Origin: an uncultured Candidatus Saccharibacteria bacterium
GTDB taxonomy: Bacteria; Patescibacteriota; Minisyncoccia; Phycocordibacterales; CAIZIN01
NCBI GenBank assembly: GCA_964615805.1
Contig: CAZTQI010000001.1
Location: 1-27,388 of the forward strand
DNA: 27,388 bases
Direction of reading: 5' to 3'
Shown: positions 6,840 to 9,220 of the stretch, one piece after another
Position numbering within the stretch: position 1 is the first letter of the stretch
Layout of the letters: each line of letters begins with the position of its first letter
Notes under the pieces: model-generated
Told to the model about the DNA's origin: nothing
Seen by the model: only the letters and a program-made list of their open reading frames with translations
Database searches by the model: none
Program-made: the position numbers and the translations under genes

Positions 6840-6871
6840 TAAAAAACCGGCTAGTATTTCTACTAGCCGGT
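6840..6871 (-). terminator. Intrinsic terminator after the Cys-rich peptide
   Basis: Minus strand ACCGGCTAGTA-GAAA-TACTAGCCGGT: perfect 11-bp stem, GAAA loop, T tract. Confidence 0.9.
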
Positions 6872-6895
6872 AAATTTTGAATCAATTGGGATTTA

Positions 6896-7015
6896 TCAGC
6901 CCCAATCACACCAGCAGTCACAATTGCAACCTACACATTCACAGCCTGAACTGTATTCAGCCTGAAAACCTGAGGTCGTCATTGAGACAAAACCAAGAAC
7001 AAGTTTCTTTTTCAT
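6896..7015 (-). CDS. Putative RiPP precursor, 39 aa: MKKKLVLGFVSMTTSGFQAEYSSGCECVGCNCDCWCDWG (absent from ORF track)
   Basis: Strong SD AGAAAGGAG 5 nt upstream of the ATG. Starts 39 nt after the radical SAM stop and is followed by a terminator. Six Cys in the last 15 residues. Confidence 0.88.
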   Translation of the reverse strand: MKKKLVLGFVSMTTSGFQAEYSSGCECVGCNCDCWCDWG

Positions 7016-7054
7016 ATACACTCCTTTCTATGTTTATTGTTTATGAGACAGATA

Positions 7055-8350
7055 TTATGTAGCCAAACATATGACGTTTTGACTATATAAACCAGTAAAG
7101 AAGTTCCGTACAAGACCTAACTCAATATTATACTCTTTTGAAACATAATCAAGAGTAAATGTCTTTCCACGTAACTCCTTTAACAATTCAATAGAATCGG
7201 CATTGACGATGGATTTGAATGTACCATCGACTATTAAGGCAGTACCAAACTCCTCCGACCTTAGGTGGAGTCCTGAATTAACGATCAAGTCTTTGTTTGG
7301 ATCCAGAAGTACAACATCATTTGGTTTTCTTGGCACATACGCAAAGTCTTTTGAAGTTGCATATGGATCCATTGAACATATATTTCCGTAGTACTTGCAG
7401 TCCATTCGACAACCACCGCTACATTCAATGACGTATTTGCACTCTTTACATTCCTGAGGTAGCAGAGAGCCATCTCTCCAACTTTTTAGCCTTGGCCAGA
7501 TTTGAAGTAAAGACTCCTCAATTGCATTACCGTAAACATCATCAGAGTGACCACAGGGACGAACTTGTCCGTCGGAACCAATCGTACATCCTGTTTTCCC
7601 AGCGCTACAACTTCTTTTCGAAAGAAATTGGCCATAGCGACTCATGTCTTTGAGCAGACAGACTGGGTACGTAGTTAGTGAATCAACTTTGAGTCCGAAT
7701 TCGTCACGCAATTCAATGAGATTATCAAATATTCCAGCAATCTTCTCAGCTGGAAGCCTGATCTGTTCAAAGTTGGTAGACCCTTGAGCCGGGTGGACTT
7801 TTGTCGCACGAAAACCAGTAACACCCAAACTGTGAACAAACTTACCCGTCTCATGTATTTGATCAAAATTTGGTTGCATTACAACCATATTTGCACTGAC
7901 TGGAACCTCAAACTCACGCAGTATTTCAATTCCTTCAATCAATCTACCAAAGGAACCGCGCACAGTAGTGATGTTATCATGTGTATTTTTGTCATATGAT
8001 AATATCGATGTTAACACACCGATATCAAGCCTTTTCAGCTCTCTTGCAACTTCTGGAGTCATTAGGGTCAGGTTTGAGTTCAACGAACACTTCAAACCAA
8101 GACTTTTTGCGAATTCAAATGTAGACATCATCAAATCGGTATGCATCATCGGTTCTCCTCCGGTAATCAAAAAATTAGGAACCTCGCTGTCTGCGAGATT
8201 TTTGACAATTTTTCTTGCATCTTCCTCACTTAGAGTGACATCCTTTTCGGATGCTTTTCTCCAATGATTATAACAATGAATACATTTATGATTGCAAGCG
8301 GTAGTGAGTTCAAGTTGAACGGCTATGGGCGATTTCAGTTGTTTATACAT
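7055..8350 (-). CDS. Radical SAM/SPASM peptide maturase with C-terminal PqqD/RRE-like domain
   Basis: CNHKCIHC, ITGGEP, SPASM cysteines CSAGKTGC...RPC...CKEC...CSGGC, and C-terminal LRSEEFG followed by helices. SD GAAAGGA. Confidence 0.92.
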   Translation of the reverse strand: MYKQLKSPIAVQLELTTACNHKCIHCYNHWRKASEKDVTLSEEDARKIVKNLADSEVPNFLITGGEPMMHTDLMMSTFEFAKSLGLKCSLNSNLTLMTPEVARELKRLDIGVLTSILSYDKNTHDNITTVRGSFGRLIEGIEILREFEVPVSANMVVMQPNFDQIHETGKFVHSLGVTGFRATKVHPAQGSTNFEQIRLPAEKIAGIFDNLIELRDEFGLKVDSLTTYPVCLLKDMSRYGQFLSKRSCSAGKTGCTIGSDGQVRPCGHSDDVYGNAIEESLLQIWPRLKSWRDGSLLPQECKECKYVIECSGGCRMDCKYYGNICSMDPYATSKDFAYVPRKPNDVVLLDPNKDLIVNSGLHLRSEEFGTALIVDGTFKSIVNADSIELLKELRGKTFTLDYVSKEYNIELGLVRNFFTGLYSQNVICLAT

Positions 8351-8422
8351 AAAACTATCCTTTCATTTGTTGGATTTTTTCAAATAACAAACATTTTAGA
8401 ACACCTAAAATATCTAATGTAA

Positions 8423-8451
8423 ATAGTAGCAAGTTACACACCGAAAGTCAA
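8423..8451 (-). promoter_or_regulatory. Promoter of the rSAM-precursor operon
   Basis: Minus strand TTGACT-17 nt-TACTAT with a TGC extension; second TTTGAC immediately upstream. Confidence 0.7.
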
Positions 8452-8461
8452 ACTAGTCAAA

Positions 8462-9220
8462 TTATGAACTTTTTCCAAACAAAGTCTTAATGTATTCAGG
8501 ATAACACCACCAGTGTTTTCCATCGGCTTCATTTTGAGGTGTGAGTGGAACAATCAACGGCTTCACTCCAAATTTTTTCCAAACAAATTCAAAAGCTGGC
8601 AATAAGACTTCTTCGGTGAATTTTTTCTCTTTACTTGTGAGCAAATAATTTTCAAACAAAATTCCATTTCTAATATAAAAAGCAAAAATATACTTATAAT
8701 ACTCCTTTGGATTTTTACCGAGTTTATGATAATCCTCTGATCCATCATATATTTCAAGACCCTCATAAAAAGTATTTAGCGCTCGATGGTGGAAGTCTAC
8801 AAGACTTTCCCCCCACAATGTTTCAACGTCCTTAATCTTCTTCTTTTCGTTTTTTCCACAAAGATCAATAATGTGTTCACTACTAGTTATCATTTCATTA
8901 TTATCATTTCTACCATGATAAAAAACCATCTTTCCTAATGAAACTTTGTCAAAATTTGTTGTAACAAACAAATCATCGGTATATTCAAAAACCAATGGCC
9001 TTAAATCTATTTCTTGTGAGGCTTTCCAAAAATGAAAAAACGCCCAGTTTGATGTAGCAACATGAAAAGTACACAAAGCTCGAGGCTCTGATCGTAAAGG
9101 TAAAGGCAAATTATCACCCAAATAGTCCTCCACCCTCTTTCTCAACTCCGGATCATTCCACCTCCTCTCAAGCTCAGCTTTAGCTTCCTGTAGTGGTGTA
9201 TAAATATCGTTTACGTTCAT
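8462..9220 (-). CDS. Hypothetical protein X, full copy D (252 aa)
   Basis: Paralog of 1082..1840 at an exact offset of 7380. 8477-8740 is identical to 1097-1360. Confidence 0.85.
   Translation of the reverse strand: MNVNDIYTPLQEAKAELERRWNDPELRKRVEDYLGDNLPLPLRSEPRALCTFHVATSNWAFFHFWKASQEIDLRPLVFEYTDDLFVTTNFDKVSLGKMVFYHGRNDNNEMITSSEHIIDLCGKNEKKKIKDVETLWGESLVDFHHRALNTFYEGLEIYDGSEDYHKLGKNPKEYYKYIFAFYIRNGILFENYLLTSKEKKFTEEVLLPAFEFVWKKFGVKPLIVPLTPQNEADGKHWWCYPEYIKTLFGKSS

What the first reader, a model, noticed from the sequence alone, without database searches (positions are those of the whole stretch)
6840..8464. Self-contained two-gene RiPP cassette with an unannotated CxCxxCxCxCWCDW precursor
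Seen: promoter, then rSAM/SPASM with RRE-like C-terminus, then a strong SD, the 39-aa peptide MKKKLVLGFVSMTTSGFQAEYSSG-CECVGCNCDCWCDWG, and a perfect terminator. Established: SPASM enzymes with RREs make sactipeptide/ranthipeptide thioethers from Cys-rich precursors, and others make aromatic-X-X cyclophanes (triceptides). Inference: a new family with alternating Cys next to acidic/amide acceptors (E, N, D, D), plus a W-C-D motif that could be a cyclophane site. An alternative is a metal-binding peptide. It would be unusual in a reduced CPR-like genome. No dedicated protease or exporter is in the operon.
Basis: partly seen in the sequence, partly recalled or inferred. Interest (0 to 1): 0.86.

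Follow-up and report, generated by a model that had tools for sequence, protein, structure and literature searches.

The report
Cysteine-rich peptide maturation cassette, three genes
A tiny uncultured lake bacterium carries a conserved but uncharacterised three-gene module (a radical SAM enzyme, a 39-residue cysteine-rich peptide and a zinc-protease-like protein) that most likely makes a small cross-linked peptide, and the module recurs in ultra-small bacteria and a few archaea.

Summary
There is a promoter-like site, a radical SAM/SPASM gene (8350..7055), a strong Shine-Dalgarno, a 39-aa ORF (7015..6896, core CECVGCNCDCWCDWG) and an 11-bp terminator hairpin.

Comparative evidence shows the pairing is real:
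- 49 of 74 homologous loci carry a Cys-rich small ORF directly downstream. The background rate is 2.2% per small ORF.
- Core types follow the enzyme tree.
- The ORF is under purifying selection.
- The enzyme's last 87 residues fold as a RiPP recognition element.

- The cassette is not a self-contained two-gene unit without a protease. The next gene (6809..5964) has invariant HExxH plus Glu and a zincin fold, and an HExxH neighbour of this kind sits beside the enzyme in 66 of 80 loci.
- The cassette is not foreign to reduced genomes. The family lives mostly in Patescibacteria and a few DPANN-type archaea, but sparsely (7 of 400 sampled phylum genomes, 0 of 9 in the family).

No curated model or paper found covers the family. 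The chemistry is untested. Thioether cross-links are my best guess. An aromatic cyclophane cannot be the family-wide reaction. It is a good, uncharacterised RiPP family rather than a new principle.

The parts
8423..8451 (-). promoter-like site (TTGACT, 17 nt, TACTAT with TG) upstream of the radical SAM gene
   Evidence: A consensus match only, 9 of 12 positions.
8358..8364 (-). Shine-Dalgarno GAAAGGA, 7 nt before the enzyme's ATG
   Evidence: read from the sequence
7055..8350 (-). radical SAM/SPASM peptide maturase, 431 aa
   Evidence: Pfam Radical_SAM, Fer4_12 and SPASM, all above cut-off. Invariant C19/C23/C26 and G64-G65-E66. SPASM Cys C231, C248, C266, C301, C304, C310 and C314 are invariant and C255 is nearly so. 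No NCBIfam equivalog is reached.
7397..7609 (-). SPASM auxiliary-cluster region (residues about 248-318)
   Evidence: Pfam SPASM on residues 248-305. The pattern C-x12-G-x4-C ... C-x2-C-x5-C-x3-C is conserved in 19 homologues.
7058..7318 (-). C-terminal RiPP recognition element (residues 345-431)
   Evidence: AlphaFold2 pLDDT 94.9, with strands followed by three helices. The top Foldseek PDB matches are RREs: PbtF, PqqD, TigE, ThcOx, TbiB1, McbB, MccB, LynD and MibB.
7021..7026 (-). Shine-Dalgarno AAGGAG, 5 nt before the peptide's ATG
   Evidence: read. Conserved in relative L083.
6944..7015 (-). leader of the precursor (residues 1-24) with the conserved LGFVSM motif
   Evidence: The motif recurs 11-39 residues before the first core Cys in 28 of 53 precursors under a regular expression I defined, with looser variants in others. 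The leader/core boundary is inferred.
6896..6943 (-). core of the precursor (residues 25-39, CECVGCNCDCWCDWG) plus the stop codon
   Evidence: Compared with the relative whose enzyme is 84% identical: 11 synonymous against 4 non-synonymous codon changes, and all Cys kept.
6846..6871 (-). intrinsic terminator hairpin followed by a T run
   Evidence: A compensatory stem change is seen in L083.
6816..6843 (-). promoter-like site (TG-extended TATAGT) ending 6 nt before the HExxH gene's ATG
   Evidence: The -10 region is conserved in L083. A leaderless transcript is an inference.
5964..6809 (-). HExxH+Glu zincin-fold protein, 281 aa, the putative leader peptidase
   Evidence: Invariant H146, E147, H150 and E174 in 30 homologues. 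Model pLDDT 96. Structural matches are M1, M4, M30, M36 and M9 metallopeptidases at Z 5-7.3, and DUF4932 at E 2e-21. An HExxH neighbour of this kind sits next to the enzyme in 66 of 80 loci.

Best explanation
This is a three-gene biosynthetic module for a ribosomally made, post-translationally modified peptide.

1. The 39-residue precursor is bound through its leader (conserved LGFVSM motif) by the recognition element fused to the C-terminus of the radical SAM/SPASM enzyme.
2. The enzyme cleaves SAM reductively, abstracts a hydrogen atom from core residues, and cross-links the six-cysteine core. The most likely products are sulfur-to-carbon thioether bridges (sactionine- or ranthionine-type). 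The acceptor carbon is unknown.
3. The neighbouring HExxH+Glu zincin-fold protein then removes the leader. This releases a compact acidic peptide of about 15 residues and about 1.7 kDa.

What is shown: the domain make-up, the recognition-element fold, conserved linkage of the three genes, co-variation of core type with enzyme clade, and purifying selection on the small ORF.

What is inferred: leader binding, the cross-link chemistry, the cleavage step and its site, and the product's role.

The module is an accessory element. It is patchy among relatives and sits between repeated copies of another gene's 5' end.
For: - Enzyme: radical SAM, Fer4_12 and SPASM domains above Pfam cut-offs, with the CxxxCxxC, GGE and 7-8 SPASM cysteines conserved.
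- Recognition element: a confident model whose best PDB matches are all known RREs.
- Precursor: 49 of 74 loci have a Cys-rich downstream ORF, against 2.2% background. Three loci carry a Pro/Cys-rich ORF after the HExxH gene instead.
- Core classes follow enzyme clades.
- Compared with the relative whose enzyme is 84% identical, 11 of 15 nucleotide differences fall at third codon positions and all Cys are kept.
- Cys is the only universal core feature: 28% of core residues, 4-9 per core, and CxC the commonest spacing.
- Precedents: StsB installs sactionines on a CxCxC core (PMC10288494), and CrpC installs ranthionines on a Cys-rich substrate (PMC13692751).
- Third gene: invariant HExxH...E, zincin-fold matches, and a linked HExxH neighbour in 66 of 80 loci. 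Weak sequence signals also point to peptidases: Peptidase_MA_2 and the YydH/LiaK epipeptide protease model.
- Accessory nature.
Against: - No enzymology exists for any member.
- The enzyme reaches no curated sacti- or ranthisynthase model: SkfB 64 bits against a cut-off of 300, StsB 80 against 625, PapB 66 against 340.
- Six Cys in 15 residues leaves only nine possible acceptor residues, and a hairpin topology is impossible.
- No single acceptor type is shared by all clades.
- No conserved Cys follows the CxxCx5Cx3C block, so the ligation of the second auxiliary cluster is unclear.
- The HExxH gene lies behind a terminator, is on the opposite strand in several loci, and a homologue occurs without a radical SAM neighbour.
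- HExxH proteins in RiPP clusters can be alpha-ketoglutarate hydroxylases rather than peptidases (PMC12636437).
- No exporter or immunity gene is conserved.
- Structural matches of the HExxH model are middling (Z at most 7.3).
Confidence: 0.6

Rival explanations
1. The module is the same RiPP module, but the third gene is not a leader peptidase. It is an alpha-ketoglutarate/Fe(II)-dependent HExxH oxygenase that beta-hydroxylates Asp, Asn or His in the Asp-rich core, or cleaves the backbone oxidatively. Examples are ChlBH, BpmH, PflC and PosC.
For: - HExxH enzymes of zincin-like fold next to, or fused with, radical SAM enzymes hydroxylate Asp, His and Gln in RiPPs (PMC12636437).
- The cores here are 18% Asp, and Asp most often follows Cys.
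- The model aligns to the ChlBH HExxH domain 8s5f at Z 4.8.
Against: - None of ten family members matched any NCBIfam model other than weak peptidase ones, at E up to 10.
- M1 and M4 peptidases score higher (Z 5.9-7.3) than 8s5f.
- The gluzincin third-ligand Glu is invariant.
- One whole clade of cores has no Asp or Glu but keeps the HExxH gene.
- From general knowledge, these bacteria are mostly fermentative and lack a TCA cycle to supply alpha-ketoglutarate.
Confidence: 0.15
2. The radical SAM enzyme makes carbon-carbon or carbon-oxygen cross-links from aromatic residues (triceptide- or darobactin-like cyclophanes, for example on W-C-D). The cysteines serve another role, such as disulfides or metal binding.
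For: - 43 of 48 distinct cores contain W, Y or F, usually flanked by Cys.
- The window's core has two Trp.
- The enzyme gives weak matches to the WgkB and DynA models, 88 and 84 bits.
Against: - Five cores, including a whole clade, have no W, Y or F, yet keep the enzyme.
- The residue two positions after the aromatic varies among the cores listed.
- The matches to cyclophane synthase models are far below their cut-offs of 450-650 bits.
Confidence: 0.1
3. The product is not an exported antimicrobial. It is an intracellular metal-binding or redox peptide (metallothionein-, metallophore- or cofactor-like), whose CxC/CxxC/Asp array binds metal, with the radical SAM enzyme tailoring or locking it. 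This reading concerns function, and is partly compatible with thioether chemistry on a subset of the Cys.
For: - No transporter or immunity gene is conserved within 3 kb in 80 loci.
- The cores are anionic, at 28% Cys and 18% Asp, with metallothionein-like CxC and CxxC spacing.
- PQQ and mycofactocin are precedents for SPASM/RRE/peptidase modules that make cofactors (general knowledge; MftC is discussed in PMC10288494).
Against: - Nothing was tested directly.
- The patchy, accessory distribution and rapid diversification of cores look more like an interaction or competition trait than a housekeeping cofactor.
- Ranthipeptides are also acidic and often lack dedicated exporters (general knowledge).
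Confidence: 0.13
4. The small ORF is a chance ORF in the enzyme's 3' untranslated region, and the enzyme acts on a non-peptide substrate. Its best model matches are the haem enzymes NirJ2 and AhbD.
For: The best NCBIfam matches are NirJ2 (134 bits) and AhbD (125 bits).
Against: - Those scores are far below the 500-bit cut-offs.
- The enzyme has a fused RRE.
- A downstream Cys-rich ORF is present in 49 of 74 loci.
- The substitution pattern is that of a coding sequence.
- The Shine-Dalgarno is strong and conserved.
Confidence: 0.02

Closest known systems
StsB/StsA (and BlaB/BlaA) sactipeptide system, Streptomyces sparsogenes (PMC10288494)
   Same: A radical SAM/SPASM enzyme works with an RRE on a precursor whose core has alternating Cys (CxCxC). 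All Cys become thioethers. By full-length similarity the enzyme sits nearer to MftC-like proteins than to classical sactisynthases, as here.
   Different: - In the Sts system the RRE is a separate protein (StsC). Here it is fused at the C-terminus.
- The StsA core has a matching GxGxG acceptor arm and forms a hairpin. The window's core has Cys along its whole length and no Gly arm.
- The StsB model scores 80 bits against a cut-off of 625.
- No zincin-fold gene was mentioned in the Sts passages I read.
Ranthipeptides (PapB/freyrasin, SCIFF/CteB, and CrpC/CrpA in PMC13692751)
   Same: SPASM enzymes with an RRE make many sulfur-to-side-chain-carbon bridges in Cys- and Asp-rich cores without a hairpin. 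The products are acidic. Dedicated exporters are often absent.
   Different: - The PapB model scores 66 bits against a cut-off of 340.
- The Cys-x3-Asp repeat of freyrasin (general knowledge) is not present. Cys-x-Cys dominates.
- One clade has no acidic residue at all.
- The RRE is at the opposite end of the enzyme.
Epipeptide system YydF/YydG/YydH
   Same: A small cassette of precursor, radical SAM enzyme and a dedicated HExxH metalloprotease. One family member gives a weak match to the YydH/LiaK model (E 0.0013).
   Different: - YydG is an epimerase, and its substrate is not Cys-rich.
- YydH is a membrane protein (general knowledge). The window's HExxH protein begins without an obvious hydrophobic segment, although no membrane or signal-peptide predictor was run.
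- The match is far below the cut-off, 18 bits against 225.
Fused radical SAM/alpha-KG-HExxH RiPP enzymes (ChlB) and HExxH oxygenases PflC/PosC/BpmH (PMC12636437)
   Same: A radical SAM peptide maturase is genetically coupled to a zincin-like HExxH protein in a RiPP cluster, and Asp is a known target.
   Different: - None of ten members matched an oxygenase-type HExxH model in NCBIfam.
- Structural similarity is lower than to true peptidases, Z 4.8 against 7.3.
- The genes here are separate, and the partner enzyme acts on Cys-rich rather than aromatic cores.
Proteusin radical SAM epimerases (C-terminal RRE fusions; PMC7470986)
   Same: The recognition element is fused to the C-terminus of a radical SAM peptide-modifying enzyme.
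   Different: From general knowledge, those enzymes lack a SPASM domain, use long nitrile-hydratase-like leaders and epimerise residues. Here there is a full SPASM domain and a short leader.

Membership tests
Radical SAM/SPASM RiPP maturase (general class) | CxxxCxxC cluster motif and SAM-binding GGE motif | tested here: met
   C19, C23, C26 and G64-G65-E66 are invariant in 19 homologues. Pfam Radical_SAM scores 90 bits against a cut-off of 29.5.
Radical SAM/SPASM RiPP maturase (general class) | SPASM domain with the seven-Cys pattern for two auxiliary clusters | tested here: met
   Pfam SPASM scores 31.8 bits against 21.5. C231, C248, C266, C301, C304, C310 and C314 are invariant, and C255 is conserved in at least 90%. 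The usual last Cys after the CxxCx5Cx3C block is not conserved. Cluster occupancy is not testable here.
Radical SAM/SPASM RiPP maturase (general class) | RiPP recognition element that binds the leader | tested here: met
   Fold only: pLDDT 94.9 and top PDB matches are RREs at TM 0.54-0.76. Sequence profiles did not find PqqD. Binding was not tested.
Radical SAM/SPASM RiPP maturase (general class) | Cognate precursor gene next to the enzyme, co-varying with it | tested here: met
Sactipeptides | Cys sulfur to alpha-carbon thioether in the product | not testable with these tools
   Needs mass spectrometry, desulfurisation labelling or NMR.
Sactipeptides | Enzyme matches a curated sactisynthase model | tested here: not met
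   SkfB 63.6 bits against a cut-off of 300; StsB 80.5 against 625.
Ranthipeptides | Cys sulfur to beta- or gamma-carbon thioether in the product | not testable with these tools
   Needs chemistry.
Ranthipeptides | Enzyme or precursor matches curated models (PapB, SCIFF) | tested here: not met
   PapB 66.2 bits against a cut-off of 340. Ten precursors scanned at E up to 10 gave no SCIFF-type match.
Triceptides / three-residue cyclophane RiPPs | Aromatic-x-x motif in every core as the cross-link site | tested here: not met
   5 of 48 distinct cores have no W, Y or F. The window's own core does contain W-C-D.
Gluzincin (MA clan) metallopeptidases | HExxH with a downstream Glu as third metal ligand | tested here: met
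   H146, E147, H150 and E174 are the only invariant columns in 30 homologues. In a second subfamily member (L004) I read the spacing as about x18, from the fragment shown.
Gluzincin (MA clan) metallopeptidases | Zincin catalytic fold | tested here: met
   24 of the 25 matches at Z 5 or more are zincin-type metallopeptidases or their homologues, at Z 5.1-7.3. Foldseek finds M1 domains at E 0.5-3, and AFDB finds DUF4932, DUF45, DUF2268, M48 and M1. Z below 8 is middling.
Gluzincin (MA clan) metallopeptidases | Match to a curated peptidase family model above its threshold | tested here: not met
   The window protein gets no Pfam or NCBIfam hit. An H2 member gets Peptidase_MA_2 at 21.9 bits against 32.4. 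No GxMEN exopeptidase motif precedes the HExxH (read).
Alpha-KG-dependent HExxH oxygenases (IPR026337-type) | Sequence membership in the HExxH oxygenase domain family | tested here: not met
   In ten members scanned against NCBIfam at E up to 10, the only hits are weak peptidase or unrelated models. I did not confirm that the library holds that family's model.
Alpha-KG-dependent HExxH oxygenases (IPR026337-type) | Fe(II)/alpha-KG-dependent hydroxylation activity | not testable with these tools
   Needs an enzyme assay.

The most novel reading that the evidence does not exclude
Ultra-small symbiotic bacteria and archaea share a dedicated, exporter-less three-gene pathway. Its radical SAM enzyme performs a cysteine-centred reaction not yet described, for example very short-range or Cys-to-Cys bridges in CxC arrays. 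The product would be an intracellular metal- or redox-active peptide rather than a bacteriocin.
Probability: 0.15. Interest if true: 0.8.

Novelty: new variant of a known kind. Interest (0 to 1): 0.55.

Why it matters
Candidate-phyla-radiation bacteria and DPANN archaea are usually described as nearly devoid of natural-product pathways. One metagenome survey I read reports no gene clusters at all in its Patescibacteria genomes (PMC11613949).

Here is a compact, recurrent pathway:
- 267 species-level genomes matched the enzyme's motif.
- More than 1,100 clusters of the linked HExxH protein exist at 50% identity.
- No curated model or paper I could find describes it.

The module is short enough (about 2.5 kb, three genes) to express directly. 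Its very dense CxC cores would test how far thioether-forming radical SAM enzymes can pack cross-links. Its product may bear on how ultra-small cells interact with hosts or competitors. If it proves to be an ordinary sacti- or ranthipeptide, it still adds a new enzyme clade with a C-terminal recognition element and a new leader-peptidase family.

Tried and rejected
- Pfam and NCBIfam scans of the peptide and nine other precursors gave nothing useful. The only hit was a 15.6-bit resemblance of one precursor to the FibroRumin Cys-rich RiPP model.
- Pfam on the C-terminal 97 residues at E up to 10 gave no PqqD hit. A profile of that domain against PDB sequences gave only weak winged-helix matches such as AdcR and SelB. 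The recognition element was settled by structure instead.
- Eight literature searches for this family in CPR/Patescibacteria found no description. Searches did turn up the HExxH-oxygenase papers behind the first rival explanation.
- I asked whether the HExxH family is exclusive to this cassette. It is not. One sampled homologue sits beside a radical SAM/SPASM gene, one sits between an ABC ATPase and a phosphorylase, and one contig was too short to tell.
- Transcription: two lake metatranscriptomes hold only four 151-nt pieces, all inside the enzyme gene and at low depth. None covers the peptide or the terminator. This is weak, because DNA carry-over cannot be excluded.
- The TPR gene (5250..5972, +) and the upstream 252-aa gene (8462..9220, -) were considered as cassette members and rejected. 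Neither recurs in the 80 loci.
- The 99-aa ORF at 7968..8267 (+) is an antisense shadow of the enzyme gene.
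Full report
**What is there**

The feature lies on the minus strand. A 431-aa ORF (8350..7055) carries Radical_SAM, Fer4_12 and SPASM domains, all above Pfam's cut-offs. It is preceded by a promoter-like site (TTGACT-17-TACTAT with TG, 8451..8423) and a GAAAGGA Shine-Dalgarno.

Thirty-nine bases after its stop, an AAGGAG Shine-Dalgarno lies 5 nt before an ATG at 7015. 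That ATG opens a 39-codon ORF ending at 6896. The last 15 residues are CECVGCNCDCWCDWG. An 11-bp perfect hairpin with a T run follows (6871..6846). Only the strand needs stating.

**Is the small ORF real and paired with the enzyme?**

The enzyme has at least 180 homologues in the large protein collection. A motif scan of one genome per species found 267 relatives, and I fetched 80 of them with flanks.

- In 49 of the 74 loci with enough downstream DNA, a same-strand ORF of at most 95 aa starts within -40..+300 nt of the enzyme's stop and has at least four Cys in its last 30 residues. Elsewhere in the same loci, 2.2% of 4378 small ORFs meet the criterion.
- Several of the remaining loci have three-Cys versions. 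Three loci carry a Pro/Cys-rich ORF placed after the next gene.
- On a tree of the enzymes, core types form clades, for example CYCNCGCAC-VTG, CDCYDCDYNCEECD, CDN-SGGCD-SGC and the window's own C-CDCWCD[WY] group.
- In a syntenic relative (enzyme 84% identical, upstream gene 92%), the peptide ORF differs at 15 nucleotides. Eleven are third codon positions, giving 11 synonymous and 4 non-synonymous codon changes. Every Cys is kept, several with a changed codon. The Shine-Dalgarno is kept, and the terminator stem is kept through a compensatory change.

**The enzyme**

- In 19 homologues spanning 33-73% identity, the CxxxCxxC cysteines (C19, C23, C26) and the GGE motif are invariant.
- Seven further cysteines are also invariant: C231, C248, C266, C301, C304, C310 and C314. 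C255 is nearly so. This fits the SPASM pattern.
- The last about 87 residues contain an invariant R-x-E motif (LRxRxExFG in the consensus). Sequence profiles did not place this region.
- An AlphaFold2 model of residues 345-431 is confident (pLDDT 94.9), with a small sheet followed by three helices.
- Its best PDB matches are almost all RiPP recognition elements: PbtF, PqqD, the radical SAM enzyme TigE, ThcOx, TbiB1, McbB, MccB, LynD and MibB (E 0.003-0.2, TM 0.54-0.76).
- The recognition element is thus confirmed by fold, at the C-terminus. C-terminal fusions are known in proteusin enzymes (PMC7470986).
- No NCBIfam equivalog is reached. The best scores are NirJ2 at 134 bits against 500, MftC at 95 against 265, StsB at 80 against 625, PapB at 66 against 340 and SkfB at 64 against 300. 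The best solved relative by sequence is SkfB.

**The third gene**

The next ORF (6809..5964, 281 aa) contains HEISH.

- BLAST clustering of all neighbours in the 80 loci found only one recurrent partner type besides the peptide: HExxH proteins of 205-340 aa in three clusters. At least one is present in 66 of 80 loci, usually directly after the peptide. Several of the 14 loci without one end too close to the enzyme to judge.
- In 30 homologues, the only invariant columns are H146, E147, H150 and E174. This is the gluzincin signature.
- The model is very confident, with pLDDT 96.
- An exhaustive structural comparison puts M1 aminopeptidases, leukotriene A4 hydrolase, M30, M36, thermolysin, LasB and collagenases on top at Z 5-7.3.
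- Foldseek agrees weakly. AlphaFold DB clusters give DUF4932 (E 2e-21), DUF45, DUF2268, IrrE-like, M48 and M1.
- There is no GxMEN exopeptidase motif, so an endopeptidase is more likely than an aminopeptidase. This is my inference from the sequence.
- The gene follows the terminator and has its own TG-extended -10 element ending 6 nt before the ATG. This suggests a separate, possibly leaderless transcript.
- In several loci the HExxH gene is convergent with the enzyme. The linkage is therefore genomic rather than strictly operonic.
- A profile search finds 1,136 clusters at 50% identity with E up to 1e-10. Of three sampled, one is next to a radical SAM/SPASM gene, one is not, and one contig was too short.

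**A rival for the third gene**

HExxH proteins of zincin-like fold in RiPP clusters, some fused to radical SAM domains, have recently been shown to be alpha-ketoglutarate/iron oxygenases. They hydroxylate Asp, His or Gln, or cleave the backbone oxidatively (PMC12636437). The cores here are Asp-rich, so this must be considered.

Against it:
- Ten family members scanned at E up to 10 gave only weak peptidase matches (YydH/LiaK, flagellinolysin) or unrelated ones.
- The ChlBH HExxH domain aligns at Z 4.8, below the true peptidases.
- The third-ligand Glu is invariant.
- A clade whose cores have no acidic residue keeps the gene.

I give this rival 0.15.

**What chemistry?**

Over 51 distinct cores, Cys makes up 28% and Asp 18% of residues. 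Cys is most often followed by Asp. CxC is the commonest spacing, then CxxC. In the separate tally of 48 distinct cores, there are 4-9 Cys per core with a median of six. Of those 48 cores, five have no W, Y or F and seven have no D or E.

The only universal feature is therefore cysteine. This argues that the family-wide reaction is cysteine-centred. It excludes an aromatic cyclophane, and an Asp-specific acceptor, as the common chemistry.

Thioether formation is the established reaction of SPASM/RRE enzymes on Cys-rich cores. StsB converts a CxCxC core into three sactionines (PMC10288494). CrpC installs ranthionines on a Cys-rich substrate (PMC13692751). An alpha-carbon acceptor would need no particular side chain, which fits the variable x positions. 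With six Cys and nine other residues, the topology must differ from known hairpins. This step is inference. I put thioethers at about one half.

**Distribution and context**

- The genome is 0.69 Mb in 119 contigs and 75% complete. Lake and freshwater metagenomes hold the stretch.
- The enzyme was not found in five same-genus or four same-family genomes. It was found in one of 31 same-order genomes and in seven of 400 sampled genomes of the phylum.
- Most of the 80 fetched records bear Patescibacteria/CPR names, and a few are archaeal.
- Within the window, the module lies between two of five direct copies of a 115-nt unit that includes the 5' end of a 252-aa gene.
- One relative's module abuts a phage-type integrase.
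- No transporter or immunity gene recurs.

The module is thus accessory and mobile. It is characteristic of reduced genomes rather than alien to them, and it has no conserved export partner.

**Expression**

Two lake metatranscriptomes contain four read-sized pieces at 99% identity or more, all within the enzyme gene and at low depth. This is compatible with transcription but is not proof.

**Verdict**

The RiPP reading is well supported by comparative evidence. The 'two-gene, no protease' and 'unusual for CPR' parts are wrong.

It is an uncharacterised family of a known kind. What sets it apart is a C-terminal recognition element, very dense CxC cores, a dedicated zincin-fold partner, and a home in ultra-small bacteria and archaea.

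Noticed in passing
window 18028-19230 (-): A second radical SAM/SPASM gene (Pfam Radical_SAM 89 bits, SPASM 26 bits), about 28% identical to the first. Its LRKESFGG recognition-element-like motif is near the N-terminus instead of the C-terminus. No Cys-rich small ORF is visible directly downstream, and the next gene is a 200-aa ORF.
   Followed up: partly
window 1740-1854, 3114-3228, 5045-5159, 9120-9234, 11215-11329: Five direct copies (78-100% identical) of a 115-nt unit covering the 5' end of a 252-aa gene and the sequence just upstream of it. There is also a 300-nt tract at 98% identity between 1094-1393 and 8474-8773. The RiPP module lies between two of the copies.
   Followed up: partly
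window 6809-6843 (-): The -10 element (TG-n-TATAGT) of the HExxH gene ends 6 nt before its ATG, and no Shine-Dalgarno is visible. This suggests a leaderless mRNA. The -10 region is conserved in relative L083.
   Followed up: no
L087:3841-5434: In a relative whose enzyme is 67% identical, the precursor ORF runs on past the conserved core (a 67-aa gene call). The next gene is a convergent phage-type integrase, and no HExxH gene lies within the fetched flank.
   Followed up: no
L011:4326-5346 and two sister loci: In a Levybacteria-type clade the HExxH gene overlaps the enzyme's stop codon. In three loci a roughly 97-aa Pro/Cys-rich ORF with a FVSIL-type leader motif follows, so the gene order there is enzyme, HExxH, precursor.
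   Followed up: partly
window 7634-8331: Four 151-nt contigs from two freshwater metatranscriptome runs match the enzyme gene at 99% identity or more. None covers the peptide, the terminator or the HExxH gene.
   Followed up: partly
L054, L069, L080: Loci labelled as archaeal (Nanoarchaeota, 'archaeon', Methanosarcinales) carry the enzyme and a Cys/Asp-rich precursor with a different, charged leader. They have no HExxH neighbour within 3 kb.
   Followed up: no
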